Origin: an uncultured Desulfobacteraceae bacterium
Lineage (GTDB): Bacteria; Desulfobacterota; Desulfobacteria; Desulfobacterales; SKZT01
DNA: 64,000 nucleotides
Reading direction: 5' to 3'
Assembly: GCA_964478625.1 (NCBI GenBank)
Contig: CAYZJH010000006.1
Coordinates: 12,543-76,542, forward strand
Shown here: in pieces, positions 2,224-45,722 of the stretch
How the letters are laid out: each line of letters begins with the position of its first letter
Numbering within the stretch: the stretch's first letter is position 1
Notes under the pieces: model-generated
What the model was told of the DNA's origin: nothing
What the model saw: the letters and a program-made list of their open reading frames with translations, nothing else
Database searches by the model: none
Position numbers and translations under genes: made by a program

Positions 2224-2306
2224 ATATTCACCAGTATGATCGTTACAAGGTTAGAGAAACGGCAAGTTTCAATATATATACCAATTTTACCCTGAACAAT
2301 CAATAG

Positions 2307-2350
2307 AAAAAAAGGATTGGCGTGCGTTGGCATCACCAATCCTTTTTTAT
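2307..2350 (-). terminator. rho-independent terminator downstream of hppA (looks bidirectional)
   Basis: Stem aaggattgg (2312-2320) pairs with ccaatcctt (2336-2344). It is flanked by an A-run on one side and a T-run on the other, about 50 nt after the hppA stop. Confidence 0.7.
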
Positions 2351-2392
2351 TTCAACATACTACAGCAAAAGTAACCCTGGTCCCTCTAAATT

Positions 2393-4405: not shown

Positions 4406-4432
4406 TCTTTTCCCTCCATCTGAAAAATTGCT

Positions 4433-5023
4433 TTAATTAATGGTTTTCAAACGATTAAACCGATTCATCCCTTCCTTTGCGCCTTCACAAAGGATTGTCA
4501 ATGCAGCGTCCATAGCTGTGGGGATTATTTTATCCAGCAGCACTCTTTCTTCCGGACTAAAACGGCCCAGAACGTGATCAACCACGTCCGCACCAGCCTC
4601 AGAACGCCCGATACCTATACGAAGTCTGGTAAAATTGCCTCCGCCAAAGGCATCGATAATGGATCTGATCCCTTTGTGTCCCCCATCCCCTCCTTTCTCT
4701 TTGATTTTTATTCTTCCGAATGTGAGATCTATGTCATCATGAATAACCAGCATATCCTCACATGATATCCTGTAAAAGCCCGCCAGCTTCTGAACCGGCG
4801 GACCACTAAGATTCATAAACATTTGGGGTTTGGCCAGCACGACATCATCACCCTGAATCCTGCCTTTGCCGTAAATGGTATTGAACTTGTTCTTATCCAT
4901 TGAAATTCGAAAAGCATCCGCCAGTTTATCCACCACAATAAATCCGGCATTGTGTCGCGTCATGGCATATTCTTTGCCCGGATTCCCCAGCCCAATGACA
5001 AGCTTTAAAGATGATTGAACCAT
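4433..5023 (-). CDS. pth: peptidyl-tRNA hydrolase
   Basis: 196 aa; N-terminal LVIGLGNPGKEYAMTRHNAGF motif; sits in the conserved pth-ctc-prs order. Confidence 0.95.
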   Translation of the reverse strand: MVQSSLKLVIGLGNPGKEYAMTRHNAGFIVVDKLADAFRISMDKNKFNTIYGKGRIQGDDVVLAKPQMFMNLSGPPVQKLAGFYRISCEDMLVIHDDIDLTFGRIKIKEKGGDGGHKGIRSIIDAFGGGNFTRLRIGIGRSEAGADVVDHVLGRFSPEERVLLDKIIPTAMDAALTILCEGAKEGMNRFNRLKTIN

Positions 5024-6692: not shown

Positions 6693-6767
6693 TGGCTGGG
6701 GCGGGAGGATTCGAACCTCCGAATGCAGGAACCAAAATCCTGTGTCTTACCGCTTGACGACGCCCCA
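6693..6767 (-). tRNA. tRNA-Gln (anticodon UUG), CCA encoded
   Basis: The reverse complement TGGGGCGTCGTCAAGCGGTAAGACACAGGATTTTGGTTCCTGCATTCGGAGGTTCGAATCCTCCCGCCCCAGCCA folds as a cloverleaf. It has a 7-bp acceptor stem, anticodon stem CAGGA/TCCTG with loop TTTTGGT, and a GGTTCGAATCC T-arm. Very similar to E. coli tRNA-Gln. Confidence 0.97.
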
Positions 6768-14608: not shown

Positions 14609-14637
14609 ATAGGGTTTTCGGGATAAGGTGAAGCAAG

Positions 14638-16668
14638 ATGGAATCTATCGATGATCAACCCCTGTACAGCAGCAGAATCATTAATACCTATATCAAATTG
14701 CTTAAAAAGCGATACAGCTTTATTAATGTGGGAGAGCTGTTAAAAAAATCTGAAATGAAATCGTATCAGGTAGAAGATGAAGGTCACTGGTTTACCCAGA
14801 AACAGGTTGATCTTTTTTATGAAAATGTCAAAAATCTCACCCGCAATAAAAAAATAGCCAGAGAAGCCGGCCGTTATGCTGCTTCACCCGAAGCTTTGGG
14901 AATAATGCGTCATTTTATTCTCGGATGCGTGGAGCCTGCGACCGCCTATCTGATGCTTGAAAAAGCGGTTCCCAATTTTACCAAATCCTCCACCTTTAAA
15001 GTGAACCAAATCAATTCTTCAGCAGTGGAAATTATCGTTGAAACCATAAACGGATTCTGTGAAAAACCCTACCAGTGTGAAAACCGAATTGGCTACATCG
15101 AAGCCGTATCGCTGATATTCAACTATCGTTTGCCCAACGTGAAGCATCCTGAATGCATGTTTAACGGAGGAAAAGTCTGCAGATATATCGTGTCATGGAA
15201 AAGATCCCGTTCTGCAATTTGTAAAAGAATCAGAAACGGTGTCACCATCCCGATGCTGACCGTATGTGCGGCAACGGTTTTTATGCTTCCGGATGTCGCA
15301 TTACCCCTTGTATTGAGTTCCCTTTTTATTTTTCTATTGCTTTCCCTTCGTGCCGAATGTTTAAAAAAAAATGAATACCAATTTGCGTTAAACTGTCTGA
15401 TGGGCTCCAGCGACAAACTGTTAAACCAGATCAACATCAATTATAACAATGCCATGCTGGCCAATGAACTTGGCCAGTCCATCAATAAAAAACTGAGTGT
15501 CGAGGGTGTTGCCAACGAAGTCATTCAGGTAATCCAAAAACGGCTGGATTTTGACCGGGGGATCATCTGGATGGTGGATAAAGCCCAAAATAAACTGGTT
15601 TTCCAGTCCGGGTTCGGTTACACGGAAAAACAGCTGGATACGCTGATCAAAACAGAGTTTCATCTGGATAATCCGAAATCTAAAGGTGTTTTCGTCCTTT
15701 GTGTTCTGAAAAAAAGACCTTTTCTGATCAACAATGTGGATGATATCGCAGAATCGCTTTCCCCCAAGAGCCTGGAATATCTGAAACTATTGGAAAGCAC
15801 CTCCTTTATCTGCTGTCCCATTATCTATGAAGGTGAGGCCTTGGGGATTTTTGCAGTGGACAATGTTAAAAACAAAAGACCATTGTATCAAAGCGATATG
15901 AGTCTTCTGATGGGAATCGCTCCGGAAATCGGAATCAGTATCCATAACGCCACCCTGATTGAGTCCAAAGAGCGCCAGTTCAAATCGATCCTGCAAACAC
16001 TCGCTGCCAGCATTGATGCACGTGACCCTCTGACGGCCGGTCATTCCGAACGCGTCACACAATACTCACTTGGTATATGCCAGGAAATGAATCTTGCCGA
16101 AACCTTTTGTGAAACCATCAAAGTGGCCGCATTGCTTCATGACTATGGAAAAATCGGTATCAGTGATTCAATCCTGAAAAAGAAAGAAGCCCTGACCCCC
16201 GAAGAATATCGGCAAATTCAGACCCATGCTGAAAAATCGAGACGAATCCTGGAACAAATTAACTTTGAAGGCATCTACAGTGCGGTTCCGGATATAGCCG
16301 GATCCCATCATGAAAAATTTGATGGATCCGGATATCCCCATAACCTCAAAGGAGATGAGATCCCCTTAGGTTCCAGAATCATTGCCGTTGCTGATGTTTT
16401 CGAAGCCATCACATCCAAACGCCACTATCGGAATCCCATGCCGGAAGATATCGCTTTGGGCATCATTGCCCACCAGAGTGGAAAGCATTTTGACGGCGAA
16501 ATTGTACAGGCCTTTTTCCGGCATTACAATAAATTGAGAACAGGAGAAAACCGCCAGATTGATCTTTCAGTCAACCTGGAAAAAATAAGAAATGGAGGCG
16601 ATTTATCCAAAAGGCTTACGACCTTTGCATATAATCAGCGGAGTATAGGTAAATCTTCCGGGGTCTGA
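14638..16668 (+). CDS. membrane-anchored GAF / HD-GYP c-di-GMP phosphodiesterase with an N-terminal sensor-like domain
   Basis: 676 aa. The N-terminal ~190 aa is an unassigned domain ending HPECMFNGGKVCRYIV. Then a hydrophobic stretch (TIPMLTVCAATVFMLPDVALPLVLSSLFIFLLLSL), a GAF-like region, and HD-GYP motifs HDYGKI and HHEKFDGSGYP. Confidence 0.85.
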   Translation: MESIDDQPLYSSRIINTYIKLLKKRYSFINVGELLKKSEMKSYQVEDEGHWFTQKQVDLFYENVKNLTRNKKIAREAGRYAASPEALGIMRHFILGCVEPATAYLMLEKAVPNFTKSSTFKVNQINSSAVEIIVETINGFCEKPYQCENRIGYIEAVSLIFNYRLPNVKHPECMFNGGKVCRYIVSWKRSRSAICKRIRNGVTIPMLTVCAATVFMLPDVALPLVLSSLFIFLLLSLRAECLKKNEYQFALNCLMGSSDKLLNQININYNNAMLANELGQSINKKLSVEGVANEVIQVIQKRLDFDRGIIWMVDKAQNKLVFQSGFGYTEKQLDTLIKTEFHLDNPKSKGVFVLCVLKKRPFLINNVDDIAESLSPKSLEYLKLLESTSFICCPIIYEGEALGIFAVDNVKNKRPLYQSDMSLLMGIAPEIGISIHNATLIESKERQFKSILQTLAASIDARDPLTAGHSERVTQYSLGICQEMNLAETFCETIKVAALLHDYGKIGISDSILKKKEALTPEEYRQIQTHAEKSRRILEQINFEGIYSAVPDIAGSHHEKFDGSGYPHNLKGDEIPLGSRIIAVADVFEAITSKRHYRNPMPEDIALGIIAHQSGKHFDGEIVQAFFRHYNKLRTGENRQIDLSVNLEKIRNGGDLSKRLTTFAYNQRSIGKSSGV

Positions 16669-35660: not shown

Positions 35661-35689
35661 GTTGATTGATTCCTAAACCAGGAGATACC

Positions 35690-37843
35690 ATGACAGAAAC
35701 CGACACCCGGGATAATCCTTTCATTGCCCTGTTGGCGGATGACGATGAAATGATGCGGATTTTGATGCGTTCCTCTTTGGAAAAATCGGGTTTTTGGGTC
35801 AAGGAAGTGGAGGATGGGGCATCGGCCCTGAAGGAATATAAATCACTTTTGCCGGATGTTGTACTGCTGGATCTCATGATGCCCGGCATAAACGGGTTTG
35901 AGGTATGCAAGGAAATTCGCAAACTGCCCGAAGCCCTGTTTACGCCCATTCTGGTCATCACCGGATTATCCGACATCAAATCCATTGAAAGGGCTTACGA
36001 AGCGGGTGCCACGGATTTTATCACCAAACCGGTCAATTGGGACACTCTCGGGCACCATGTTCGTTACTTGCTGCGATCCGGCCAGATCGCCGAACAACTT
36101 CACAAAAACAAAGAAGCACTCCGCAAAAGCGAAGAGCGTTACGCCCTGGCGGCCCAAGGGGCTAATGACGGTTTATGGGATTGGGATCTGCACACGGGAA
36201 ATCTTTTTTTTTCGGAGCGTTGGCAAAAGATTCTGGGATATGATTACGGGACGTTCGGAAATACACTGGAGGATTGGTTCGACCATATCCACAAGGATGA
36301 CCTTCCAGATGTTGAAGTGGCCTTGAGCAACCATCTGGAGGGTTTAACCGAACATTTCGAACATGAGCATCGAATGCGTTACAAAGATCAGGAGTATATA
36401 TGGGTTCTGGTCAGGGGGCTAGCCATTCGGGATCCTGATGGAACCCCCTACCGGATGGCGGGGTCCCTTACGGATATTACCAGACGCAAAAAAACAGAAG
36501 AACAACTCATTCATAATGCTCTTTACGACAGTCTTACGCGCCTTGCCAACCGAACCCTGTTTTCCAACCGGCTGTCCCACGCCCTGCAACGTCTTAAACG
36601 AAATCACGACTCTGCATTTGCGATTCTTTTCCTGGATCTGGATCGTTTCAAGGTGATCAATGACAGCCTCGGGCACCAGACTGGAGATGAAATACTCAAA
36701 ACCATTGCTCGTCGTCTTGAATTGTGTATTCGACCGGGTGACACAGTGGCACGACTGGGAGGAGATGAATTCGTCATTTTGCTGGAAGGGATTCAGGATA
36801 TCCATGATGCGGAGAGAGTGGTGGAAAGAGTAAAAGCCAGGTTTAAGGAACCGATACAGCTTCAACACCATGAAGTCATCTACACCAGCGCCAGTATCGG
36901 CATTGTGATGGGATCATTGGATTACAACCGCCCGGAGGAACTGCTCAGGGATGCGGATACGGCCATGTATCGGGCCAAGTCCAAGGGCTTGGGCCGTTTT
37001 GAGAAATTTGATCCGTCCATGCACCACCATGTGGTCAGCCAGCTTCAACTCGAAAATGACCTGAGACGGTCTCTGGATACCCATGATTTCATTATCCACT
37101 ATCAGCCGATTGTTTCCTTGTTAACGGGTAAAATAACTGCCTTGGAAGCCCTGGTTCGCTGGAATCACCCCAAAAAAGGGCTTTTGCAGCCCGCCGATTT
37201 TATCTGGCTGGCCGAGGAAACCGGATTGATCGTTCCTTTAGGACATTGGATATTGCGTACCGTATGTCAACAGATCAGTCAATGGGAAGAGGCGGGAATG
37301 AACAAAATTCGTGTCGCCGTCAACATTTCCGCACGGCAACTTCTTTTTGACGGATTTGTGGATTCAGTATCCCAAATTATCAAACAGACCAATATCAATC
37401 CCGGGGTTTTAGAATTGGAAATCACCGAATCCGTGGTAATGGAAAATCTTCAACACGCCAAAGAGGCATTGCAGCGGCTCAGCCAAATCGGTGTGCAACT
37501 GGCACTGGATGATTTCGGGACGGGCTACTCCTCCCTGAGTTATCTGCATCACTTTCCGGTCAATAAAATTAAAATAGACCGCTCTTTTATTCATCAGGCA
37601 GGCTCAAATGCAGAGAGCAAGGACCTGGTGAATGCCATCATCAATATCGCCAAAAGCCTGTCCATGGATCTGGTGGCCGAGGGGGTAGAAACAAAAGATC
37701 AACTGGAGTGGCTTCAGAACAAACATTGCCAGTCGGCCCAGGGATTTTTGTTCTCCCACCCTTTGAGCGCTGTGGATATCGAAAAAATGTTAATGTCAGA
37801 GCAAAACCTTCTGGACCATGAACAATTGAAACGGTGCAGCTGA
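35690..37843 (+). CDS. response-regulator receiver / PAS / GGDEF / EAL c-di-GMP turnover protein
   Basis: ATG 35690 with SD aggaga. Receiver DVVLLDLMMPGINGFE. PAS region. RPGD I-site five residues before GGDEF. EAL-domain motifs EALVRW, DDFGTGYSSL, KIDRSF, EGVET and QGFLFSHP. Confidence 0.92.
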   Translation: MTETDTRDNPFIALLADDDEMMRILMRSSLEKSGFWVKEVEDGASALKEYKSLLPDVVLLDLMMPGINGFEVCKEIRKLPEALFTPILVITGLSDIKSIERAYEAGATDFITKPVNWDTLGHHVRYLLRSGQIAEQLHKNKEALRKSEERYALAAQGANDGLWDWDLHTGNLFFSERWQKILGYDYGTFGNTLEDWFDHIHKDDLPDVEVALSNHLEGLTEHFEHEHRMRYKDQEYIWVLVRGLAIRDPDGTPYRMAGSLTDITRRKKTEEQLIHNALYDSLTRLANRTLFSNRLSHALQRLKRNHDSAFAILFLDLDRFKVINDSLGHQTGDEILKTIARRLELCIRPGDTVARLGGDEFVILLEGIQDIHDAERVVERVKARFKEPIQLQHHEVIYTSASIGIVMGSLDYNRPEELLRDADTAMYRAKSKGLGRFEKFDPSMHHHVVSQLQLENDLRRSLDTHDFIIHYQPIVSLLTGKITALEALVRWNHPKKGLLQPADFIWLAEETGLIVPLGHWILRTVCQQISQWEEAGMNKIRVAVNISARQLLFDGFVDSVSQIIKQTNINPGVLELEITESVVMENLQHAKEALQRLSQIGVQLALDDFGTGYSSLSYLHHFPVNKIKIDRSFIHQAGSNAESKDLVNAIINIAKSLSMDLVAEGVETKDQLEWLQNKHCQSAQGFLFSHPLSAVDIEKMLMSEQNLLDHEQLKRCS

Positions 37844-37904: not shown

Positions 37905-38642
37905 TCACTTTAGCTCTGAATCACTTAGGGGTTCGGGTATGGCCCTAGACTCGGGGCGACGTTTTATCAACACGAGAACACGGGATTGATTCAGGAAAGG
38001 AAGTTGATATTTTCGGGTTGAAATACTCCAGTGGGAAACTGAAATCCTTTCATTTTCTCTCAGATTTTGAATTTCATCTATTTCTGTTTCAACCGGTTTT
38101 CCCTTATACGCCAGAAGGAAACCCTTTTCAGAGAGCAGAGGACCGGCCATCTCTACAAAAGATTTCAAATCTGTCAACGCCCTGCATACGATCACATCAA
38201 AAAGATTCTTAAATTCCGAATCGTGTGTCAAATTTTCGGCTCGGACATGGCGTGCGAACATATCAGGAAGTTTCATCAACCGAATCAGATGATTTAAAAA
38301 GGCAACCTTTTTTCTCGAAGCATCAATGAGAAACATCGGATTGGAGACAAGCATGATTTTCAGGGGGATTCCGGGGAAACCGGCACCTGAACCGATATCC
38401 AATATTCTTTTACCTGAACCGATTTCAGGAACTGCGGCAATGGAATCCAGAAAGTGTTTCACAGCGATTTCCATCGGGTCGGTAATGGCGGTCAGGTTTA
38501 CTTTCCGGTTCCAGACCAATAATTCCGAAGCATGAAGCGCAAAGAGTTCAGCCTGCTCTGAACTTATCCGGATTCCCAACAATTGAGCTCCGTCCCTAAT
38601 AGTTTTTTTCCACTCTAAAAAATCAATCTTTCCCACTTGCAC
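37905..38642 (-). CDS. rsmG: 16S rRNA (guanine527-N7)-methyltransferase
   Basis: 245 aa (GTG start, uncertain); WNRKVNLTAI, HFLDS and SAM loop DIGSGAGFPGIPLKI. Confidence 0.88.
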   Translation of the reverse strand: MQVGKIDFLEWKKTIRDGAQLLGIRISSEQAELFALHASELLVWNRKVNLTAITDPMEIAVKHFLDSIAAVPEIGSGKRILDIGSGAGFPGIPLKIMLVSNPMFLIDASRKKVAFLNHLIRLMKLPDMFARHVRAENLTHDSEFKNLFDVIVCRALTDLKSFVEMAGPLLSEKGFLLAYKGKPVETEIDEIQNLRENERISVSHWSISTRKYQLPFLNQSRVLVLIKRRPESRAIPEPLSDSELK

Positions 38643-40543
38643 TCTTTATCGCTTTCGGAATGATCCGGTGAATTTTCGAAATCGATCAGGAATTTGATTT
38701 CATTGTCTTTGATATTAAACACTTTTGCATCCGGATAATGGTCGTTAAATATTTTTTGCATGGCCTTATTTTCAGGAAGAACCGATGCTGAAAACCCTGT
38801 ATAATTATTTTCTTTGGCAATTTTTTCAAGCATTTTCAGCAGGTATGAGCCGATACCCAGATTCTGGTAATCTTCCCGAACCACAAAAGCCACCTCTGCC
38901 CTATTGTCATCTGCCTGAGCATAACTTCCGATAGCAATTATTTCCTTGCCCCCCAGTTTTTGCACCTTGCCGATAATGGACAGGTTTTTTTTATAATCCA
39001 TGGATGCCCAGTGTTTCTGAATGACTTCATGGGAAAAGAGTTTAACCCGGTGGAAAAACCGGGAATAAATGGTTTTTTCCTGAAGAGAGTAAAAAAAGTT
39101 TCTGTATTCGAATTCATCGGATGGAAACAGCGGCTGGAATTCCACCGTTTTTCCGCTTTGAAGCCTGAAGGTATCCTTATATTTTTCCACAAATATCAGA
39201 TCATGCTGAAGGGGGGGGAGCTGATCAGGGAATATATAACGATGTTTTTTAGCTTCGTTGACCAATTGCTCCCGGAATTTGGGATGGGCAATTTGGGCCA
39301 GTTCCATAACCCGCTGATAAATACTTTTGCCCTGCAATTCTGCGATGCCGTATTCGGTGACCACGAAATTGATATCCCCCCTCGTGGTCGCCGTCCCCGC
39401 TCCTTCACTCAGGTGGGAAACGATTCGGGAAATTTTACCATCCTGGGCTGTTGAGGGCAGAGCAATAATGGAAAAGCCGCCTTTGGACATGGCGCTTCCT
39501 CGAATAAAATCAACCTGATCACCGATACCGCTGTAAAACCGATAACCCACCGAGTCGGTGCAGACCTGGCCGGTTAAATCCACTTCAAGCGCACTGGAGA
39601 TAGAAATCAGGTGATCGTTTCTGGCAATAACCGTGGGATCGTTGACAAAATCGGAAGCCCTGAAATAGAATCCGGGATTGCCATTGATATAATGATAAAG
39701 TTTTTCAGATCCCATGCAAAGGGATGCAACGGTTCTTCCACGAAGATAATTTTTTCGTTTATTGGTAATGACTTTCTGGGTAAACAGCGGCAAAAAGGCA
39801 TCGGTAATGACCTGGGTATGAACCCCCAGATCTTTTTTGGCATCCAGATATTTCAAAATGGCATTGGGAAGATGTCCGAACCCGATCTGGATAGTGGCAC
39901 CGTCATCCACAAGTTGCGACACATACCGCCCTATTCTTTCGGAAATCTCATTTTCCTTTTTGATCGGCGTACTTTCCACCAGAGGCTCATCATGGTAAAC
40001 CAGATAATCGATATCATCCACATGTACAAAAGAATTTCCACCGGTTCTGGGCATCCTGGGATTTACCTGAGCAATGGTCAGTGCGGCATTTTCCATTCCC
40101 GAGCGGGTGATATCCACGGATACCCCAAGGCTGCAATATCCGAAACCATCAGGAGGACTCACCTGTATCAGAGCCACATCCAACCCGATACGATGGCTGG
40201 AAAAAAGTTTGGGAATTTGTGACAGGTATGTGGGGATGTAGTCGATCTTTCCTTCAAACGCCGCTTCCCGGATATCTCTGGAAATAAAAAACAACTTCAG
40301 AAGAAATCGTTTATGAAAATCCGGGTCGTCCACATAACGGGCCAGCGTAAAAGAAAGCATCTGATAGATCATGATATCCTGAAGCCCGGGATCTTTGACC
40401 ATGGCTCTTATTAAATGTTGCGGCTCACCGCATCCGGTACCGATAAACACACGGCTTCCCTGCCGGATTCCGGATATGGCCTCCTTTGCCGAAACTACCT
40501 TATCAGGATAAATTTCAGACAGTTTGTTTTTTTCACTGGTCAT
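38615..40543 (-). CDS. acetyl-CoA hydrolase/transferase-family domain fused to a C-terminal GNAT acetyltransferase domain
   Basis: 642 aa. The N-terminal ~430 aa is CoA-transferase-like (VSAKEAISGIRQGSRVFIGTGCGEPQHL...). The C-terminal GNAT motif A is FVVREDYQNLGIGSYLLKMLEKIA. Confidence 0.8.
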   Translation of the reverse strand: MTSEKNKLSEIYPDKVVSAKEAISGIRQGSRVFIGTGCGEPQHLIRAMVKDPGLQDIMIYQMLSFTLARYVDDPDFHKRFLLKLFFISRDIREAAFEGKIDYIPTYLSQIPKLFSSHRIGLDVALIQVSPPDGFGYCSLGVSVDITRSGMENAALTIAQVNPRMPRTGGNSFVHVDDIDYLVYHDEPLVESTPIKKENEISERIGRYVSQLVDDGATIQIGFGHLPNAILKYLDAKKDLGVHTQVITDAFLPLFTQKVITNKRKNYLRGRTVASLCMGSEKLYHYINGNPGFYFRASDFVNDPTVIARNDHLISISSALEVDLTGQVCTDSVGYRFYSGIGDQVDFIRGSAMSKGGFSIIALPSTAQDGKISRIVSHLSEGAGTATTRGDINFVVTEYGIAELQGKSIYQRVMELAQIAHPKFREQLVNEAKKHRYIFPDQLPPLQHDLIFVEKYKDTFRLQSGKTVEFQPLFPSDEFEYRNFFYSLQEKTIYSRFFHRVKLFSHEVIQKHWASMDYKKNLSIIGKVQKLGGKEIIAIGSYAQADDNRAEVAFVVREDYQNLGIGSYLLKMLEKIAKENNYTGFSASVLPENKAMQKIFNDHYPDAKVFNIKDNEIKFLIDFENSPDHSESDKECKWERLIF

Positions 40544-40581: not shown

Positions 40582-43500
40582 TTAAGGGGTCTTTTCCTGT
40601 TTTCTGATTCCATCGGTTGATTTTTCCTGTCCGAATTTGTTACGGATATATTGCATAAACGGTTTGATCACTCGAATGCGCTGCGGCGGTTTTTCCTTAA
40701 AAATCTCTTCAAGAGACAAATGGGGATCACTGATCGGGTTTCTCAGATATTTCCTTATGGCCTCCAGGCGATTTTTAATTTCTTTTTCAAACCGGACCGT
40801 TAACATATTTTTCATCTCCTGAATTTCTTCTTGCATATTTTCAGGGGATTTAACTCCCTGATAAGCCGATAACTTGTAATGAATCCTCATGCTGATCAAT
40901 TTCTGAAGGATTTTTTCATAGTCTTTATCGAGGCAGACCACCTCGGGAACCAGATCCCCAAAATGGGTCACGGCAAGAATATCCTTGTCCTGGGCCCAGT
41001 AATTGGCCAAAAACTCAGGTTCCAGGTCCTTGTAGTTTTGAAGCGGCATATACATGCGCCTGAGGTACATCAGAACCTTTTCGGCCTTTTTTTTATGCCC
41101 TCCGATAATGACCGAACCCCCTACTTCACCACTTTTAACCCCTTTAGTCCATGGAGCGCCCGTGATTCCGAAATCATTATAGATGGGAATATGGAGCAGT
41201 GCGGATAAGGTGTTCAAGGCCAGCGCATAACCGGCAGAGGGACCGCCGACATGATAGGAAGCCGATAACAACTGATGGTGAAGGGTGTATTTATCCAGAA
41301 ATTCTCCCAGTAGCTTGGGAATGCTCACTTTGTGATCCATGCTCTGAAAATAATTTTTGATCATGGTGAGCGCTTCTTTTGCCGACTGCTGGGTCATCTG
41401 GACCGCCATATCCAATTCCGCCGCACCCGGACTTGACGTGGACACAGCGCCGGTCACCAGTACTTTTTCAGGTGAAAGACTGTAAGTGAGGCTCGTGGCT
41501 ATCGGCAGCAACACACCGGTCACATCGTTTGCACCCACCCCGATGATAAAACCGACCTGAGGTTCCTGGCTGAGTTCCGCTTCGAGAAACTCATCCAGTT
41601 GAACTTTTCCCTTTCGTATGGGACTTCCGGAAATTTCGCTTCTGGCCGATAACAAATGTGAAGGCATCAACGGATAAGTTTCCATGTCATGGACTGTTGA
41701 AAACATATCGACAATCCGGTCAAAACGCTCCAGAAATTCGTTCGGGTCGTTTCGAACCTCATTTCTCAATGATTCCGGAGCATTAATGGCATCCAGGATT
41801 CCGATCAAGGTTTTAAAATTGAACTTGACAAAATTTTCTCGCTTCCCAACGGGCTGGTTCAGATAGGTTCTTGCACGCAAAAGGACTTCATACTCCGTGC
41901 TTCGAAGACTTCGCGCTTTTTCCACAAATGCGGTGTAATCGGCCGGAGTATTGCACACTCCTCTGGCTTTTTCAATGATTACCGGAACATCGATTCCCTC
42001 GGCCATGGGCACGCCATATAAACATTGGTCAACAATTCTTTCAATATCATCCTTGCTTAAATGCCCTGATACCTCGAGCACTTTGAGTCTTTTGGATCGA
42101 ATCAGGGCAGGGTCTAAAATGTCCAGCCGGTTGGTGGTCAGTGTGGTAAAAACCCTGTGCAAGGGAATTTCACCGTCAATAATGTTTAAAAATTTATTGG
42201 TCAGTTTGTCCGAAGGTGAACCTCCTGACTGACTTCGCTTCGGGGCCAGGGCATCCCCTTCATCAAAAAACACCACGGTCGGGGCAATCATCTTGGCAAT
42301 ATCATAAATTTTTTCGAGATTTTCCACCGCACCGTCAATGGGATTCACCGGATCCTGAAGCGCTACCGGATTGGTGGATATATCATGGACATCTTTGTTT
42401 TCACTCAACCACGCCCGTGCCAGAAAGGTTTTGCCTGAGCCCGGGGGTCCATTTAACACCACTCCTTTTTCTTCACTGACACCATAAAAAAGGCAGTTGT
42501 TGGCCATTTCCGAGAAAACATCCTTAATGTTGCCAATGTATTCATCCCATCTAACCTGACGATCCAGACGGCCGACCACCTTATCAAAAAGATCGCCGTA
42601 AGAATTTTTTGCCACCAGCTCGAAAGCCTTTCGCACAAGAAGGGAATCATCAAGGTATTCCGGTTTGAATTCGCTCTTGATTTCAATAATGGATCGAACC
42701 AACTTTCGAACATAAGCCGGCGTTATTTTTAGCGTTCTCTCCTGAAAAATCCGGTAAATTTTATCCACACCCGAATCAAGAAATTCGGGAGGAATACACG
42801 ATATGGATCTGTGGCATCGATGGTCCAATTTTTCTGCAACCCGTATATCACTCCGGTTTAATTCGATTCTGACAATTTCCTTGAGGTTATCGGGATTTTT
42901 CCAGTATTCTGAAATATCGACGATTTTTCCTTTTTCTACAAACCGTCTGTAAATCGTGTTATCAAAACGCTCCGGCTTGTCGGTAGTGGCGATAAGCAAA
43001 CAATCCCTTTTGCCGGTAATAATTTCATCGATGACAATATTGGCCGTATCAATCAGTGTGCGCTGTTGTCTTTCAACTCCACTGTCGCGGCCCTCTGATT
43101 TTCCGAACGCACTGTGGGCTTCTTCGATATGCCTTATGGTCGGTTTTCGGGAATCACCAAGGGCTTTTTTAAAATAATTTCCCGGCTCCCCTGCCAGGGC
43201 TGTCTGATAATCATTGGGGGTCACCATGGAATAGTCAACCATCAGACCGGGCTCCTCCAGTTCCGAAAGGTTCCTTCCGATTCTCTTCTTGAAGATTCTT
43301 CGTAACAAAGGAATTCTGGACATGATTTTGTAAAACCGGATTTTTTTGCGACGCTCCATCTCCATCGCCAAAGTAGGATCGATGTTTTCAATGGATTTCC
43401 AGAACGGTTCGGAGGCAAGCAGTTCTTCTTTTTTAAGTTTTAGATCTATTTCCGGAAGAACCCGGTCGCCGAAAATCACATTTTCGATAGCCTGGTTGAC

Positions 43501-44016
43501 CGTTGCGGTTTTTCCACTGCCTGAGGGGCCGACAACAAGAAGAAGCGCCGCTTTCGGGACACCGGGATCGGATATGTATTCCTTCCGAAGATGTGCTCTG
43601 TACACTTTTTCAAACAAGGCATCCAACTCCCATGGAACATGGACATCCGTGAGTTCATCGTCTAACAGGGAAAGCAGGTAGGCATAATCTTTGGCAGACA
43701 ACTCTTTTTCAAGAATCTTGCTCCAGGCCTCCTGAGGGTCTGTTTGACCCGATATTTCAAACCGCCTTTGCCAGTCGGTCAAAATATCCGGATCTTTTAG
43801 TATGGAGAAATTTTTTTCCGGTGATTCATAAAAAAATGAGAGGAAAGATTCCAGCAGGGTGTTGAGGATATCGGACCTGGGTTTATACTGGAGAAAACGG
43901 GCACGCATGAAAGCCTTGGTTTCATAAGGCCAAAGTGAAACCAGTTCTTCGATTTCCCGGATTCGCTTTTCAGAAAGCCTGATGTATTTGACCGCCTTTG
44001 TAAATCTTCGGGCCAT
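40582..44016 (-). CDS. 1144-aa double P-loop/AAA protein with a C-terminal Lon (S16)-like Ser-Lys protease domain
   Basis: First P-loop VVGPSGSGKT. Second module GPPGSGKT + VVFFDEGDAL + TTNRLDILDPALIRSKRL (classical AAA second region of homology). C-terminal YHVGGPSAGYALAL...IIGGHKKKAEK resembles the Lon catalytic Ser and Lys motifs. No hydrophobic TM segment seen. Confidence 0.8.
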   Translation of the reverse strand: MARRFTKAVKYIRLSEKRIREIEELVSLWPYETKAFMRARFLQYKPRSDILNTLLESFLSFFYESPEKNFSILKDPDILTDWQRRFEISGQTDPQEAWSKILEKELSAKDYAYLLSLLDDELTDVHVPWELDALFEKVYRAHLRKEYISDPGVPKAALLLVVGPSGSGKTATVNQAIENVIFGDRVLPEIDLKLKKEELLASEPFWKSIENIDPTLAMEMERRKKIRFYKIMSRIPLLRRIFKKRIGRNLSELEEPGLMVDYSMVTPNDYQTALAGEPGNYFKKALGDSRKPTIRHIEEAHSAFGKSEGRDSGVERQQRTLIDTANIVIDEIITGKRDCLLIATTDKPERFDNTIYRRFVEKGKIVDISEYWKNPDNLKEIVRIELNRSDIRVAEKLDHRCHRSISCIPPEFLDSGVDKIYRIFQERTLKITPAYVRKLVRSIIEIKSEFKPEYLDDSLLVRKAFELVAKNSYGDLFDKVVGRLDRQVRWDEYIGNIKDVFSEMANNCLFYGVSEEKGVVLNGPPGSGKTFLARAWLSENKDVHDISTNPVALQDPVNPIDGAVENLEKIYDIAKMIAPTVVFFDEGDALAPKRSQSGGSPSDKLTNKFLNIIDGEIPLHRVFTTLTTNRLDILDPALIRSKRLKVLEVSGHLSKDDIERIVDQCLYGVPMAEGIDVPVIIEKARGVCNTPADYTAFVEKARSLRSTEYEVLLRARTYLNQPVGKRENFVKFNFKTLIGILDAINAPESLRNEVRNDPNEFLERFDRIVDMFSTVHDMETYPLMPSHLLSARSEISGSPIRKGKVQLDEFLEAELSQEPQVGFIIGVGANDVTGVLLPIATSLTYSLSPEKVLVTGAVSTSSPGAAELDMAVQMTQQSAKEALTMIKNYFQSMDHKVSIPKLLGEFLDKYTLHHQLLSASYHVGGPSAGYALALNTLSALLHIPIYNDFGITGAPWTKGVKSGEVGGSVIIGGHKKKAEKVLMYLRRMYMPLQNYKDLEPEFLANYWAQDKDILAVTHFGDLVPEVVCLDKDYEKILQKLISMRIHYKLSAYQGVKSPENMQEEIQEMKNMLTVRFEKEIKNRLEAIRKYLRNPISDPHLSLEEIFKEKPPQRIRVIKPFMQYIRNKFGQEKSTDGIRKQEKTP

Positions 44017-44979
44017 TTACTTCTCCTTTACACTTTCTTTCTGGGAAATCCCTTTAGCCGAGGCATCCGGTACCGGTATCGTCAGGGCCGGACCCGGTCC
44101 CGCGGTGTTTTGAATCACCACCGTGCTTTGTGCCGACTGATTTTTCTCATAAGCCGTGGCCCATTTTTGCTGTGCCAAAAACTGGAACAAAGCGGCATCC
44201 GTTGCCCCATCAGGTCTTCCCACACTTTTTTGCAATGCCTGAATACTGTCCACATATGCCGCATACAGTTTTCGGATCCGACTTGCCTCCTGGTCTGCTG
44301 CATAGTTCTCCGCCTCGGCAATCAATTCTCTTCGCTTTTTTTCTTCAGTGGCCTCCACCAGTTTGTCTCCAAACCGGGTCTCCTTGAGCACAAAACTGAC
44401 CACTTCAATCCCGTATTTTTGTTCGAGGGTCGGACCTCCCTCGTTGATGGGGCGCGATTTCAGGGCCCTGAAAATTTCTTCCTTAATATCTTCTCTCAGA
44501 CTGACCAGTTCTCCCACTTTTTTGGCCTGAAGAATATCCTTGACAATACCGTCGTAATCTCCCTGCAGAAGATTCATGGGATCAAGGTTTTCAATGGCCC
44601 AGATTTTCAAATCATTAATTCTGTAAGTTAGCACCGCCGAAGTCCACAGGGCTACATTTTCCTGAGAAATAATCCGGTTGGGTTCTGTTTGCCCGCTTAA
44701 AAACATCGCCTGGTTCATCAGGGGAACTTCCTGTTCAATCCGGGTAAAAAAGGGCAACCGCATATGCCATCCCTGTTCGGTAACCGGCACACGTTTTCCT
44801 CCAAATTTCTCCAGCACGATGGCATAATTCATTTTGACTTTGTAAATGGTCTTGGTGGCATATACCATGGCTACCAAACCATAAACGATTCCCACAACCA
44901 GGGCCAAGGCGAAAATCCTTCGCAAAAAAGTCTTCACAAAGGCTCGTCTGAATATTTTCCTCGAAAGCTCTTCCGTCAT
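44017..44979 (-). CDS. SPFH/band-7 (stomatin/prohibitin/HflC-like) membrane protein
   Basis: 320 aa; N-terminal TM FALALVVGIVYGLVAMVYA; SPFH core (YAIVLEKFGGKRV...LTYRI...); coiled-coil-like region EEKKRRELIAEAENYAADQEASRIRK. Its stop codon directly abuts the ATG of the AAA/Lon gene. Confidence 0.85.
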   Translation of the reverse strand: MTEELSRKIFRRAFVKTFLRRIFALALVVGIVYGLVAMVYATKTIYKVKMNYAIVLEKFGGKRVPVTEQGWHMRLPFFTRIEQEVPLMNQAMFLSGQTEPNRIISQENVALWTSAVLTYRINDLKIWAIENLDPMNLLQGDYDGIVKDILQAKKVGELVSLREDIKEEIFRALKSRPINEGGPTLEQKYGIEVVSFVLKETRFGDKLVEATEEKKRRELIAEAENYAADQEASRIRKLYAAYVDSIQALQKSVGRPDGATDAALFQFLAQQKWATAYEKNQSAQSTVVIQNTAGPGPALTIPVPDASAKGISQKESVKEK

Positions 44980-45722
44980 GACATTGAACTCCTTTCAAAT
45001 CCCTTGCGAAACCAATCGGCAGCCATTCGGAGAAACTCTTCCTGATGGGCCATGTGGGTCATCCGATGGTCACCATTTTTCTGAATCACCAGTTTTTTGG
45101 GTTTCCCGACCAATTGATAGATTTTAAAAGCCTCTGAAACCGGAACCACTTCATCATTATTTCCATGAATCACCAGTATATCTTTAATATAAGAAAGGTG
45201 TTTTTCAATGTCGAAAGACAGGTTGTTGATTAATTCCGTCAGTTGGATCACCGGGGTCTCATGTCTCTGCATGGAATCCAACAGGCAGTTGCTGTTTACC
45301 GGTGCGGCAAAAGTGACCAGTGCTGCAGGTCGAATTATGGCTGAAACCCGGCATGCCACCGCTCCGCCAAGACTGCTTCCAAAAAAGGCAATACTATTTC
45401 CAGTATCACTTCTTTTCCTCAGGGTTTCACACGCCATGACAAGATCCCGACACCGGCCTTCAAAAGAAATCAACTCTCTTTCTCCACCTTCACTCCGGCC
45501 GCACCCTCTGTGATCAAAGCGGAAAAAAGCCATGCCCGACAAATTGCAGGCATGAGCCAATGCCAGTTGTTTGGGTGATTCCTGTGTGGCAAACAATCCG
45601 TGGGAGCCGATAATGACAGGCGGATTTATTCCTGAAGGAAGATGAAGATGACCTTCGAGTCGATAACCATCGCAAAAAAAACAGAGTTTTTTACAAACAA
45701 GATTCACTGTTAATTCCGCCAT
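44976..45722 (-). CDS. alpha/beta-fold serine hydrolase
   Basis: 248 aa; nucleophile elbow FGSSLGG; C-terminal GDHRMTH (catalytic His candidate); ATGA overlap with the SPFH gene. Confidence 0.8.
   Translation of the reverse strand: MAELTVNLVCKKLCFFCDGYRLEGHLHLPSGINPPVIIGSHGLFATQESPKQLALAHACNLSGMAFFRFDHRGCGRSEGGERELISFEGRCRDLVMACETLRKRSDTGNSIAFFGSSLGGAVACRVSAIIRPAALVTFAAPVNSNCLLDSMQRHETPVIQLTELINNLSFDIEKHLSYIKDILVIHGNNDEVVPVSEAFKIYQLVGKPKKLVIQKNGDHRMTHMAHQEEFLRMAADWFRKGFERSSMS

What the first reader, a model, noticed from the sequence alone, without database searches (positions are those of the whole stretch)
40582..44016. Chimeric architecture of the 1144-aa protein: insertion-bearing P-loop module, FtsH/Cdc48-type AAA module without an aromatic pore loop, and a Lon S16 domain
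Seen in sequence:
- **Module 1** has Walker A GPSGSGKT. About 130 residues (basic, helix-like, e.g. RRKKIRFYKIMSRIPLLRRIFKKRIGR) separate it from a weak Walker-B-like IRHIEE.
- **Module 2** has GPPGSGKT, VVFFDEGD and a classical second region of homology, TTNRLDILDPALIRSKRL.
- **Pore-loop position.** Where FtsH-type AAA proteins carry the aromatic pore loop, this protein reads ALQDPVNPIDGAVE, with no aromatic residue.
- **Lon part.** It keeps GGPSAG (Ser) and GGHKKK (Lys).

Inference: the ATPase may act as a switch or assembly factor rather than a threading unfoldase, or substrates may be delivered differently.
Basis: partly seen in the sequence, partly recalled or inferred. Interest (0 to 1): 0.6.

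Follow-up and report, generated by a model that had tools for sequence, protein, structure and literature searches.

The report
Cdc48-like/Lon protease paired with SPFH
This gene encodes an uncharacterised ATP-driven protease that joins two Cdc48-type motor domains to a Lon-type cutting domain. It is almost always encoded right after a membrane-scaffold (SPFH) gene, in sulfate-reducing bacteria and in some tiny archaea, so it looks like a new variant of the membrane-associated quality-control proteases.

Summary
A 1144-aa ORF on the minus strand (40582..44016) carries every quoted motif.

**Architecture**
- Module 1 is more than a stray P-loop. It is a divergent classical-AAA D1 domain with a helical insert between helix α1 and strand β2. 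It has its own Walker B (IRHIEE) and its own pore loop (L-A-G, as in p97 D1).
- Module 2 is a complete Cdc48-D2-like ATPase.
- The C-terminal part has the Lon S16 fold, with Ser927 and Lys977 invariant down to 33-40% identity.

**Pore loops**
- This protein has no aromatic pore-loop residue in either ring.
- However, 17 of 121 close orthologues carry Trp or Tyr at the D2 site.
- Distant relatives, several on archaeal contigs, carry a canonical W-Y-G in D1.
- The "switch, not unfoldase" reading is therefore not supported.

**Context**
- An SPFH/Band-7 gene with one transmembrane helix lies directly upstream, apparently translationally coupled.
- This holds in all 13 bacterial loci and in 3 of 5 archaeal loci examined.

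**Best reading:** a hexameric, ATP-dependent Lon-type protease driven by a Cdc48-like tandem motor, working with an SPFH scaffold in the way FtsH works with HflK/C. I found no curated family model and no paper for it. I rate it a new variant of a known kind.

The parts
40582..44016 (-). Whole gene, 1144 aa plus stop. Order of parts: N domain, D1 AAA, D2 AAA, helical linker, Lon S16 domain, C-terminal helices.
   Evidence: ORF list and translation. Full-length homologues. AF2 model with mean pLDDT 78.6.
43597..44016 (-). N-terminal domain, residues 1-140. Short beta-hairpin followed by helices. Specific to this family.
   Evidence: No Pfam family even at E<=1. Conserved in distant members; R85 is invariant. 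Secondary structure from the model. It is not a Cdc48 N domain.
42577..43569 (-). D1, a divergent classical-AAA domain, residues 150-480.
   Evidence: Profile A4 against PDB puts Cdc48/p97 on top (E 1.4e-8), aligned to both Cdc48 D1 279-365 and D2 546-643. hhalign of D1 against D2 gives 74% probability. Foldseek matches the model to Cdc48 over about 720 columns. The single sequence alone is not significant against PDB.
43507..43530 (-). D1 Walker A, GPSGSGKT (163-170).
   Evidence: G163, G168, K169 and T172 are invariant in 27 diverse members. Also conserved in 121 close orthologues.
43243..43470 (-). Helical, basic insert in D1 between helix alpha-1 and strand beta-2, residues 183-258.
   Evidence: Model helices 192-253. 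Length varies between members and the insert is absent in P0132. No transmembrane-grade hydrophobicity: the highest 19-residue Kyte-Doolittle mean in the whole protein is 1.66, and it lies elsewhere. No Pfam match.
43171..43209 (-). D1 pore-loop-1 segment, YQTALAGEPGNYF (270-282). L274-A275-G276 sits at the aromatic-hydrophobic-Gly site.
   Evidence: Nearly invariant in 121 close orthologues. Distant members read T-M-W-Y-G-E-T-G. The profile aligns this segment to Cdc48 D1 'SKMAGESESNL' and D2 'SMWYGESESNI'.
43120..43137 (-). D1 Walker B, IRHIEE (294-299).
   Evidence: E299 is present in at least 90% of the 27 diverse members and in all 121 close orthologues. The first acidic position varies (E/D/L/V). 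Aligned to Cdc48 'IIFIDEID'.
41866..42549 (-). D2, a classical AAA domain of Cdc48-D2 type, residues 490-717.
   Evidence: Pfam AAA at 1.9e-28. NCBIfam CDC48, PAN and FtsH models match. PDB p97/VAT D2 at E about 1e-38.
42427..42450 (-). D2 Walker A, GPPGSGKT (523-530).
42319..42363 (-). D2 pore-loop-1 region, ALQDPVNPIDGAVEN (552-566). I560-D561-G562 sits at the aromatic-hydrophobic-Gly site and the loop is three residues longer than in p97.
   Evidence: Aligned to p97 D2 'LLTMWFGESEAN'. Position 560 is I 72, V 31, W 15, Y 2, L 1 of 121; position 561 is D or E; G562 is invariant in these close orthologues. Distant members have I/V/L followed by D/E/N/A.
42253..42276 (-). D2 Walker B, VVFFDEGD (581-588).
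   Evidence: E586 is invariant. D585 is kept in all 121 close orthologues but is Asn or Gln in five distant clusters: P0125, P0126, P0130, P0131, P0133.
42085..42138 (-). D2 second region of homology, TTNRLDILDPALIRSKRL (627-644). Contains sensor-1 N629 and Arg fingers R640 and R643.
   Evidence: N629, R640 and R643 are invariant in 27 diverse members.
41578..41865 (-). Helical linker between D2 and the protease domain, residues 718-813.
   Evidence: Model helices 723-813. No Pfam family reaches its cut-off.
40927..41577 (-). Lon (S16) proteolytic domain, residues 814-1030.
   Evidence: Pfam Lon_C is above its gathering score. Profile A5 against PDB: B. subtilis LonBA P domain 4.6e-12, M. jannaschii LonB 6.4e-11. 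Foldseek on the 715-1144 model returns only Lon P domains at the top; E. coli Lon gives target-normalised TM about 0.8 and rmsd 3.2 A.
41230..41247 (-). GGPSAG (924-929) with the catalytic Ser927. Pro precedes Ser, which is the LonA-type centre.
   Evidence: Invariant in 121 close and all distant members. The rule that A-type centres have Pro and B-type have Asp comes from PMC9569914.
41086..41103 (-). GGHKKK (972-977). K977 is the catalytic Lys equivalent.
   Evidence: K977 is invariant, whereas K975 and K976 vary. K977 aligns to the Lys of M. jannaschii LonB 'GGvneK'. Ser and Lys are 50 positions apart, against 43 in LonA and LonB (PMC9569914).
40585..40926 (-). C-terminal helical extension, residues 1031-1144. 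Two long helices followed by a low-confidence basic tail.
   Evidence: Model helices 1031-1052 and 1061-1092. The helices are conserved in distant members and the tail is not. No Pfam family.
44017..44979 (-). Partner gene: 320-aa SPFH/Band-7 protein with one N-terminal transmembrane helix (about residues 22-40).
   Evidence: Pfam Band_7 at 4e-18. The hydrophobic segment has a Kyte-Doolittle mean of 2.53. Its TAA stop directly abuts the ATG of the protease gene, with AAGGAG 7 nt upstream. An orthologous gene lies directly upstream in all 13 bacterial loci and in 3 archaeal loci. The closest solved chain is E. coli QmcA.
44976..45722 (-). Alpha/beta-hydrolase gene (248 aa) whose stop overlaps the SPFH start (ATGA). 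A lineage-specific neighbour, not part of the conserved core.
   Evidence: Pfam Hydrolase_4. Overlap and Shine-Dalgarno sequence. A homologue is nearby only in L002 and L009 among the related loci.

Best explanation
**What it is.** The gene encodes a self-compartmentalising, ATP-dependent serine protease of an undescribed architecture. A family-specific N domain is followed by two classical (Cdc48/p97-like) AAA domains, D1 and D2. A helical linker then leads to a Lon-type S16 peptidase domain with a Ser927-Lys977 dyad.

**How it most likely works.** By analogy with Cdc48 and Lon, it most likely forms a hexamer. The stacked ATPase rings would feed polypeptide into a Lon-like proteolytic chamber.
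- In this bacterial lineage D2 is the complete ATPase site, with canonical Walker A/B, sensor-1 Asn and two Arg fingers.
- D1 looks partly degenerate. Its Walker B reads E-E, and its sensor-1 and Arg-finger positions are variable. It is probably a nucleotide-binding assembly or regulatory ring.
- In this protein both pore-loop-1 sites are aliphatic: L-A-G in D1 and I-D-G in D2.

**Partner.** The protease is co-expressed, apparently by translational coupling, with a single-pass membrane SPFH/Band-7 protein. The inferred function is membrane-proximal protein quality control or regulated turnover on an SPFH scaffold, the same logic as HflK/C-FtsH, prohibitin-m-AAA and stomatin-STOPP.

**Shown versus inferred.**
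- Shown: the domain identities, the motif conservation and the gene linkage.
- Inferred: hexamer formation, substrate threading, a physical SPFH interaction and the substrates.
For: **Architecture**
- D2 matches Pfam AAA and NCBIfam CDC48/PAN/FtsH models. Its PDB best hits are p97/VAT D2 at about 1e-38.
- D1 is supported by a profile hit to Cdc48 D1 and D2 (E 1.4e-8), by hhalign of D1 against D2, and by Foldseek of the model to Cdc48 across about 720 columns.
- The Lon fold is supported.

**Signs of catalytic competence**
- S927, K977 and T952 are invariant in members down to 33% identity. So are D2 residues K529, E586, N629, R640 and R643.
- The pore-loop sites are under constraint. The D1 segment is almost invariant in 121 close orthologues, and D2 keeps NP[IVW][DE]G there.

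**Linkage to SPFH**
- The stop of the SPFH gene abuts the ATG of the protease gene, with an AAGGAG Shine-Dalgarno sequence.
- An orthologous SPFH gene lies directly upstream in 13 of 13 bacterial loci: the window and L001, L002, L007-L016. These include Desulfosarcina, Desulfobacula, Desulfofustis, Deferrisomatales and SAR324.
- The same holds in archaeal loci L003, L006 and L052 (Woesearchaeota).
- Other neighbours are not conserved.

**Precedent.** HflK/C regulates FtsH, and QmcA is an SPFH protein facing the cytoplasm (PMC10434171).
Against: - There is no experimental evidence for this family.
- No aromatic pore-loop residue is present in either ring of this protein.
- An acidic residue occupies the normally hydrophobic second pore-loop position of D2.
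- The protease has no transmembrane segment.
- The SPFH partner's N-terminal tail is strongly basic (net +5 before the helix by my count). By the positive-inside rule this could place the SPFH domain outside the cytoplasm. Contact would then be limited to that short tail.
- Two archaeal loci from one subclade lack the SPFH neighbour: L004/L005 and L051.
- The D2 Walker B Asp is Asn or Gln in five distant clusters, so D2 may not be the motor in every member.
- D1 is so divergent that the window sequence alone finds no significant PDB match.
- The Lon N-terminal strands are modelled at low confidence.
Confidence: 0.6

Rival explanations
1. The ATPase is a nucleotide-dependent switch or assembly/remodelling factor that does not thread substrate. 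The Lon domain would receive substrates some other way, or cut only exposed loops.
For: - This protein has no aromatic residue in either pore loop 1: D1 reads L-A-G and D2 reads I-D-G.
- The D2 pore loop is acidic and three residues longer than in p97.
- The D1 sensor-1 and Arg-finger positions are variable.
Against: - The D2 catalytic set and both Arg fingers are invariant.
- The pore-loop Gly and its flanks are conserved in close orthologues.
- 17 of 121 close orthologues carry Trp or Tyr at the D2 site.
- 8 of 9 distant clusters carry W-Y-G in D1, so the pore is used in the family.
- Eukaryotic Cdc48/p97 D1 also lacks aromatic residues (PMC7226402).
- A fused, invariant protease dyad downstream of a ring ATPase is the hallmark of threading proteases.
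Confidence: 0.15
2. The SPFH partner is itself the main substrate. The machine would disassemble and trim or degrade SPFH cages. This resembles the archaeal stomatin-specific protease (STOPP/NfeD, PH1510) cleaving stomatin PH1511, or Vps4 disassembling ESCRT-III.
For: - The two genes form a tight, conserved, apparently translationally coupled pair.
- The SPFH N-terminal tail carries a basic motif conserved in the bacterial orthologues ([FL]xRRAFVKxxLRR). It could serve as a handle.
- The STOPP precedent, a Ser-Lys protease encoded next to stomatin, is from my own knowledge of the literature.
Against: - No cleavage-site or degron evidence exists.
- Stoichiometric co-expression of a scaffold with its own destroyer is unusual unless it is regulated.
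- One archaeal subclade lacks the SPFH neighbour.
Confidence: 0.2
3. The pair is an anti-phage or conflict system in which an AAA ATPase and a Lon-like protease act as effector, comparable to BrxL in BREX or IetA/IetS.
For: - PADLOC gives IetA (E 3.9e-11), TRIP13 and mad8 (E 5.9e-9, residues 152-253) matches.
- Lon-like proteases do occur in defence systems.
Against: - The IetA and TRIP13 matches cover only D2 (residues 507-667), and the mad8 match covers only the D1 Walker A region (152-253).
- There is no BrxL or other Lon-type defence model hit, and the SPFH partner has no PADLOC hit.
- The gene sits among housekeeping genes (rsmG, rlmD) with no mobile-element genes nearby.
- It is conserved at about 70% identity across Desulfobacterales with the same partner. 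That pattern suggests vertical inheritance, not a patchy defence island.
Confidence: 0.04

Closest known systems
Cdc48/p97/VAT (type II classical AAA unfoldases)
   Same: - Tandem D1-D2 classical AAA domains.
- D2 carries Walker A/B, sensor-1 Asn and a second region of homology with two Arg fingers.
- Best sequence and fold matches are to this family.
- The D1 pore loop L-A-G-E matches the p97/Cdc48 D1 K-L/M-A-G-E.
- Distant, archaeal-type relatives have W-Y-G-E, identical to the yeast Cdc48 D2 loop.
   Different: - No Cdc48 N domain (no Pfam hit, and the N domain is helical in the model).
- A helical insert of about 75 residues in D1.
- The D2 pore loop is I-D-G in a longer, acidic loop instead of W-F/Y-G.
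- It is covalently fused to a Lon peptidase domain, whereas archaeal Cdc48 docks onto the 20S proteasome.
Lon proteases (MEROPS S16: LonA, LonB, LonBA, LonC)
   Same: - C-terminal P-domain fold.
- Ser-Lys dyad in G-P-S-A-G ... G-G-x-x-x-K.
- Pro precedes the Ser, as in A-type centres.
- The conserved N-terminal EPQVG strand is shared with B. subtilis LonBA.
- Evidence: PMC9569914.
   Different: - The ATPase is not the Lon-type AAA+ module. Lon models match only residues 808-1023.
- There are two ATPase domains instead of one.
- Ser and Lys are 50 positions apart, against 43.
- There is an extra helix (865-893) in the P domain, a roughly 95-residue helical linker and a roughly 110-residue C-terminal extension.
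- There is no LON N domain and no LonB membrane anchor.
FtsH with HflK/C (also m-AAA protease with prohibitins; QmcA)
   Same: - A classical-clade AAA motor fused to a peptidase.
- A functional association of an AAA protease with an SPFH-family membrane scaffold (PMC10434171).
- The SPFH partner's closest solved relative is QmcA.
   Different: - The peptidase is a Ser-Lys S16 domain, not an M41 zinc metalloprotease.
- There are two AAA domains.
- The protease has no transmembrane helices.
- The SPFH gene is a fixed operon partner.
Stomatin with STOPP/NfeD protease pairs (for example Pyrococcus PH1511/PH1510)
   Same: An SPFH gene forms a conserved operon with a Ser-Lys serine protease gene. 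This precedent is from my own knowledge and was not tested here.
   Different: The STOPP protease is a membrane-bound, ATP-independent ClpP-fold enzyme. Here the protease has the Lon fold, is soluble, and is fused to a tandem AAA motor.

Membership tests
Classical AAA clade, type II (Cdc48/p97-like) | Walker A, Walker B, sensor-1 Asn and a second region of homology with two Arg fingers in the active ring | tested here: met
   D2 has GPPGSGKT, FFDE, N629, R640 and R643. These are invariant across 27 diverse members, except that Walker B Asp585 is Asn or Gln in five distant clusters.
Classical AAA clade, type II (Cdc48/p97-like) | Two tandem AAA domains (D1 and D2) | tested here: met
   Foldseek aligns about 720 columns to Cdc48/p97 D1+D2 chains. 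Profile A4 hits Cdc48 D1 and D2 (E 1.4e-8). hhalign of D1 against D2 gives 74% probability.
Classical AAA clade, type II (Cdc48/p97-like) | Aromatic-hydrophobic-Gly pore loop 1 in at least the translocating ring | tested here: not met
   The window protein has L-A-G in D1 and I-D-G in D2. The feature is met in some relatives: W or Y in D2 of 17 of 121 close orthologues, and W-Y-G in D1 of 8 of 9 distant clusters.
Classical AAA clade, type II (Cdc48/p97-like) | Cdc48-type N domain (double-psi barrel, Pfam CDC48_N / CDC48_2) | tested here: not met
   Residues 1-150 hit no Pfam family at E<=1. The model there is a short hairpin followed by helices.
Lon protease family (MEROPS S16) | Lon proteolytic-domain fold | tested here: met
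   Pfam Lon_C is above its gathering score. Profile against PDB Lon P domains reaches 4.6e-12. Foldseek top 50 are all Lon P domains, with target-normalised TM up to 0.84.
Lon protease family (MEROPS S16) | Catalytic Ser-Lys dyad conserved | tested here: met
   S927 and K977 are invariant in 121 close and all distant members. K977 aligns to the M. jannaschii LonB Lys.
Lon protease family (MEROPS S16) | Ser and Lys separated by exactly 42 residues (LonA and LonB, per PMC9569914) | tested here: not met
   49 residues lie between S927 and K977. The alignment to B. subtilis LonBA shows a 7-residue insertion.
Lon protease family (MEROPS S16) | A single Lon-type AAA+ module immediately upstream of the P domain | tested here: not met
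   NCBIfam Lon, LonB and LonC models align only to residues 808-1040. The ATPase region is matched by CDC48, PAN and FtsH models instead. A roughly 95-residue helical linker intervenes.
LonB subfamily | Membrane-anchoring insertion with transmembrane helices between Walker A and Walker B; Asp before the catalytic Ser | tested here: not met
   An insert exists at the analogous place in D1, but nothing in the protein reaches transmembrane-grade hydrophobicity (maximum 1.66). The residue before Ser is Pro.
FtsH | M41 zinc-metalloprotease domain and N-terminal transmembrane helices | tested here: not met
   There is no Peptidase_M41 hit. FtsH NCBIfam models match only the AAA part, far below cut-off. 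There are no transmembrane helices.
SPFH-associated protease systems (HflK/C-FtsH, stomatin-STOPP) | Conserved genetic linkage of the protease with an SPFH/Band-7 membrane protein | tested here: met
   An orthologous Band_7 gene lies directly upstream in 13 of 13 bacterial and 3 of 5 archaeal loci. The junction in the window has the signature of translational coupling.
SPFH-associated protease systems (HflK/C-FtsH, stomatin-STOPP) | Physical complex of protease and SPFH assembly, with modulation of proteolysis | not testable with these tools
   No multimer prediction or experiment is available. SPFH topology is ambiguous from charge distribution.
Defence-system Lon-like proteases (BrxL and others) | Match to a defence-system Lon model and location in a defence locus | tested here: not met
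   PADLOC returns IetA and TRIP13 matches that cover only D2, plus a mad8 match to the D1 Walker A region (residues 152-253). No BrxL model is hit. Neighbours are housekeeping genes.

The most novel reading that the evidence does not exclude
This would be a previously unrecognised class of AAA+ protease: a Cdc48-type tandem motor fused to a Lon chamber. It would be dedicated to SPFH membrane microdomains and shared between Desulfobacterota/SAR324 and DPANN archaea. The substrate-gripping ring appears to have shifted or been re-tooled during evolution. Distant, archaeal-type members carry aromatic W-Y-G in D1. The bacterial clade has aliphatic or acidic loops in both rings. The bacterial enzyme would therefore translocate, or extract membrane-associated clients, by a non-canonical grip without aromatic residues.
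Probability: 0.35. Interest if true: 0.75.

Novelty: new variant of a known kind. Interest (0 to 1): 0.6.

Why it matters
- **A new way to build an AAA+ protease.** By my own knowledge of the field, only a handful of architectures are known: Lon, FtsH, ClpXP/ClpAP, HslUV and the proteasome with PAN/Mpa/Cdc48. A conserved fusion of a Cdc48-like double-ring motor to a Lon peptidase would add another. It would show that the Lon chamber can be driven by a motor from a different AAA+ clade.
- **A tractable SPFH model.** The fixed pairing with an SPFH scaffold, in bacteria and archaea alike, offers a simple two-gene system for an open question: what SPFH cages do for AAA proteases.
- **A natural pore-loop experiment.** Variation across orthologues (W-Y-G, L-A-G, I-D-G or W-E-G) allows tests of how much translocation depends on aromatic paddles.
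- **Possible importance in DPANN archaea.** In these reduced genomes the enzyme may be a major housekeeping protease.

Tried and rejected
1. **LonB/LonC-style Lon ATPase in module 1.** I considered that module 1 might be a Lon-type AAA+ module with an insertion between Walker A and B. I rejected this. Profile and fold comparisons place it with Cdc48 D1/D2, and Lon models do not touch it.
2. **Membrane-binding helix in the insert.** I tested whether the basic insert forms a membrane-binding amphipathic or transmembrane helix. It is not among the top hydrophobic-moment windows, and it has no transmembrane-grade hydrophobicity. The idea remains unsupported.
3. **Defence-system reading.** PADLOC and PHROGs gave D2-only (IetA, TRIP13) and D1 Walker A (mad8) matches, and generic ATPase matches.
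4. **A third conserved component.** The alpha/beta hydrolase, a Band_7_1/zinc-ribbon protein and the two 421-aa proteins occur in only a few loci. The two 421-aa proteins in L001 and L002 are unrelated to each other.
5. **Promoter and terminator scan.** Counts equalled those of shuffled sequence, so the scan was uninformative.
6. **Two profile searches of the 5.8-billion-protein index.** Both were swamped by generic P-loop words and added few members.
7. **GTDB genome scan.** It recovered bacterial members but no archaeal ones.
8. **afdb50 fold library.** It was unavailable.
9. **Literature.** Eight searches found no description of this architecture or pairing.
10. **Other regions.** Pfam scans of the N domain, insert, linker and C-terminal extension found nothing above cut-off.

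Full report

Yes. The window holds an uninterrupted 1144-codon ORF with an ATG start on the minus strand at 40582..44016.

| Motif | Residues |
|---|---|
| GPSGSGKT | 163-170 |
| Basic helical stretch | within 183-258 |
| IRHIEE | 294-299 |
| GPPGSGKT | 523-530 |
| ALQDPVNPIDGAVEN | 552-566 |
| VVFFDEGD | 581-588 |
| TTNRLDILDPALIRSKRL | 627-644 |
| GGPSAG | 924-929 |
| GGHKKK | 972-977 |

- Pfam matches AAA at 519-645 (E 1.9e-28) and Lon_C at 813-999, above its gathering score.
- The protein is not an orphan. Hundreds of proteins of about 1130-1145 aa share 69-91% identity, named where named as Desulfobacterales, Desulfosarcina or Thermodesulfobacteriota.
- A scan of 1.8 billion 50%-identity representatives finds about ten further full-length clusters at 33-40% identity. 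After that only generic Cdc48-like ATPases appear.

**2. Module 2 (D2) is a complete Cdc48-type AAA domain.**

- NCBIfam CDC48, PAN and FtsH models match residues 507-703, whereas Lon models match only 808-1040.
- The best solved relatives are p97, VAT and Cdc48 D2 at E about 1e-38.
- In an alignment of 27 members down to 33% identity, K529, E586, sensor-1 N629 and Arg fingers R640 and R643 are invariant.
- The Walker B Asp585 is kept in all 121 close orthologues. It is Asn or Gln in five distant clusters.

**3. Module 1 is a real but very divergent D1 AAA domain.**

- The window's D1 sequence alone finds nothing significant in the PDB (best E 0.07).
- A profile of the N-terminal halves of seven distant members hits Cdc48/p97 at E 1.4e-8. 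It aligns strand β2, pore loop, helix α2, Walker B and strand β4 to both Cdc48 D1 (279-365) and Cdc48 D2 (546-643).
- hhalign of the family's D1 against its own D2 gives 74% probability over the Walker B to second-region-of-homology stretch.
- The full-length AF2 model (pLDDT 78.6) aligns to Cdc48/p97 D1+D2 chains over about 720 columns (E 4e-20).
- IRHIEE is therefore the D1 Walker B. E299 is present in at least 90% of the 27 diverse members and in all 121 close orthologues. The first acidic position varies (E/D/L/V).
- The roughly 75-residue insert (183-258) lies between helix α1 and strand β2. It is helical, variable in length and missing in one member.
- The D1 positions equivalent to sensor 1 (D346) and the Arg finger (R356/R357) vary among members. 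D1 is probably a weak or non-hydrolysing ring, as in several other type II AAA proteins. This last step is inference.

**4. Pore loops.**

*D2.* HMMER aligns 'ALQDPVNPIDGAVEN' to p97 D2 'LLTMWFGESEAN' with a three-residue insertion.
- In 121 close orthologues, position 560 is Ile 72, Val 31, Trp 15, Tyr 2 and Leu 1. The next residue is always Asp or Glu, and Gly562 is invariant.
- Distant members have I/V/L followed by D/E/N/A.

*D1.* After the insert, D1 has its own canonical pore-loop segment, which is a new finding.
- The window protein reads Y-Q-T-A-L-A-G-E-P-G-N-Y-F (270-282). This closely resembles the Cdc48 D1 'SKMAGESESNLRKAF' to which the profile aligns. It is almost invariant in the bacterial clade.
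- In 8 of 9 distant clusters the same site reads T-M/K-W/Y-Y-G-E-T/G-G. The profile aligns this to yeast Cdc48 D2 'SMWYGESESNI'.

So the family does use canonical aromatic paddles, but in D1 and mainly in the distant, archaeal-type branch. The bacterial branch, including this protein, has aliphatic residues in both rings.

Loss of aromatic D1 loops is already known in eukaryotic Cdc48/p97, whose D1 loops still form a staircase around substrate (PMC7226402). The absence of an aromatic residue is therefore weak evidence against threading.

**5. The Lon part.**

- Residues 800-1030 alone hit Lon P domains: B. subtilis LonBA at 2e-5 and M. jannaschii LonB at 2.6e-5.
- A family profile raises this to 4.6e-12 and 6.4e-11 and covers the whole P domain from the shared 'EPQVG' strand.
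- A separate AF2 model of 715-1144 (pLDDT 75) retrieves only Lon P domains. E. coli Lon gives target-normalised TM about 0.8 and rmsd about 3.2 A.
- GGPSAG is invariant in all members, as is K977. K975 and K976 vary.
- K977 aligns to the Lys of M. jannaschii LonB 'GGvneK'. By my own count it corresponds to E. coli K722 in 'GGLKEK'.
- Pro precedes the Ser, which marks the A-type centre. The Ser-Lys spacing is 50 positions, against the 43 reported as constant in LonA and LonB (PMC9569914).

**6. Other regions.**

The N domain (1-140), the insert, the helical linker (718-813) and the C-terminal helices (1031-1144) match no Pfam family. The protein has no transmembrane-grade segment.

**7. Context: a conserved SPFH partner.**

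- Directly upstream on the same strand lies a 320-aa Band_7/SPFH protein (Pfam 4e-18) with one N-terminal transmembrane helix.
- Its TAA stop is immediately followed by the ATG of the protease gene, with AAGGAG 7 nt upstream.
- An alpha/beta-hydrolase gene overlaps the SPFH start by ATGA. A homologue of that hydrolase is nearby only in L002 and L009 among the related loci.
- The SPFH gene is found directly upstream in every bacterial locus examined: the window, L001 (Desulfosarcina ovata), L002 and L007-L016. These include Deferrisomatales, Desulfofustis, Desulfatirhabdium, Desulfobacula and SAR324.
- Three distant loci also have it. L003 and L006 carry archaeal-type neighbour genes such as S3Ae and Arc_Cdc45, and L052 comes from a Woesearchaeota assembly.
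- Two loci of one archaeal subclade lack it: L004/L005 and L051.
- The SPFH partner's closest solved relative is E. coli QmcA. QmcA faces the cytoplasm, whereas HflK/C faces the periplasm and regulates FtsH (PMC10434171).
- Topology of the present SPFH is uncertain. By my count, its conserved basic N-terminal tail (net +5) competes with a +3 flank after the helix.

**8. Mechanism.**

*Shown:*
- a type II classical-AAA motor;
- an intact Lon Ser-Lys peptidase domain;
- constraint on both pore-loop sites;
- fixed, apparently translationally coupled linkage to a membrane SPFH protein.

*Inferred:* the protein forms a hexamer whose D1/D2 rings deliver polypeptide to a Lon-like chamber. The SPFH assembly would recruit it to the membrane or present clients to it, as in HflK/C-FtsH and prohibitin-m-AAA.

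*Alternatives:*
- The SPFH protein is itself the substrate, as with stomatin and STOPP.
- The pair is a defence system.

The defence reading is unlikely. PADLOC hits are confined to D2 or to the D1 Walker A region, the neighbours are housekeeping genes, and the pair looks vertically inherited.

**9. Comparison with known families, and novelty.**

- It works like a Lon or FtsH-type fused AAA protease, and its motor is Cdc48-like.
- It is not a member of LonA, LonB, LonBA or LonC. The ATPase clade is wrong, there are two ATPase domains, and the Ser-Lys spacing differs.
- It is not FtsH, because it has no M41 domain and no transmembrane helices.
- It is not Cdc48 proper, because it has no Cdc48 N domain and carries a fused peptidase.
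- Databases label it only 'AAA family ATPase', 'transitional endoplasmic reticulum ATPase' or 'SpoVK/Ycf46/Vps4 family'.
- No NCBIfam model reaches its cut-off, and eight literature searches found no description.
- I rate it a new variant of a known kind, with moderate to high interest.

**10. Limits.**

- Everything functional is inference from sequence, models and gene order.
- The phyletic survey is partial. Two index searches and the genome scan were saturated by P-loop matches.
- D1 homology rests on profile and model comparisons, not on the window sequence alone.
- The first strands of the Lon domain are modelled at low confidence.

Noticed in passing
window 38615-40543 (- strand): A 642-aa fusion lies 38 nt downstream of the protease gene on the same strand. 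It joins an acetyl-CoA hydrolase/transferase (N and C domains) to a C-terminal GNAT acetyltransferase. The GNAT part resembles Pat-type protein acetyltransferases (NCBIfam NF058543, E 2.9e-15). It may be co-transcribed, but it is not conserved next to the protease in other loci.
   Followed up: partly
window 44976-45722 (- strand): An alpha/beta-hydrolase gene (Hydrolase_4) has a stop that overlaps the SPFH start codon (ATGA), with a GAAAGGAG Shine-Dalgarno sequence. A homologue is nearby only in L002 and L009 among the related loci, so it is a lineage-specific addition to the operon.
   Followed up: yes
L001 (Desulfosarcina ovata AP021879.1) 2181-4551 and 13800-15435; L011 34-2429: In these two genomes the SPFH and protease pair is preceded by a second SPFH protein with zinc ribbons (Band_7_1, YdjI-like) and a 421-aa unknown protein. 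In D. ovata, VWA and PspA/IM30 genes follow. This looks like a membrane-stress neighbourhood.
   Followed up: partly
window protein residues 152-253 (window 43258-43563): The PADLOC model mad8 (a MADS system component) matches the D1 Walker A region plus the start of the insert at E 5.9e-9. That is stronger than a bare P-loop match usually gives. Its meaning is unknown.
   Followed up: no
distant family members P0125, P0126, P0130, P0131, P0133: In five distant clusters the D2 Walker B Asp is Asn or Gln. Four of them (all but P0130) also keep an aromatic W/Y-Y-G pore loop in D1. This suggests the working ring may differ between branches of the family.
   Followed up: partly
L006 4947-8268: The homologue appears split into 341-aa and 755-aa genes. 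The break coincides with a run of undetermined bases (X in the translation), so it is probably an assembly artefact and not a genuinely split gene.
   Followed up: partly
bacterial SPFH partners, N-terminal 20 residues (window 44920-44979): The short tail before the SPFH transmembrane helix carries a basic motif conserved in the bacterial orthologues ([FL]xRRAFVKxxLRR). That is more conservation than a simple membrane flank would need. It may be a docking site or a degron.
   Followed up: partly
window 35666-37843 (+ strand): A gene encodes a response-regulator receiver, PAS, GGDEF and EAL protein (c-di-GMP turnover). It sits just beyond rsmG on the strand opposite to the protease operon.
   Followed up: no
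window 6693-6767 (- strand): A single tRNA-Gln (anticodon TTG) is the only RNA gene found in the window by ARAGORN and Rfam.
   Followed up: yes
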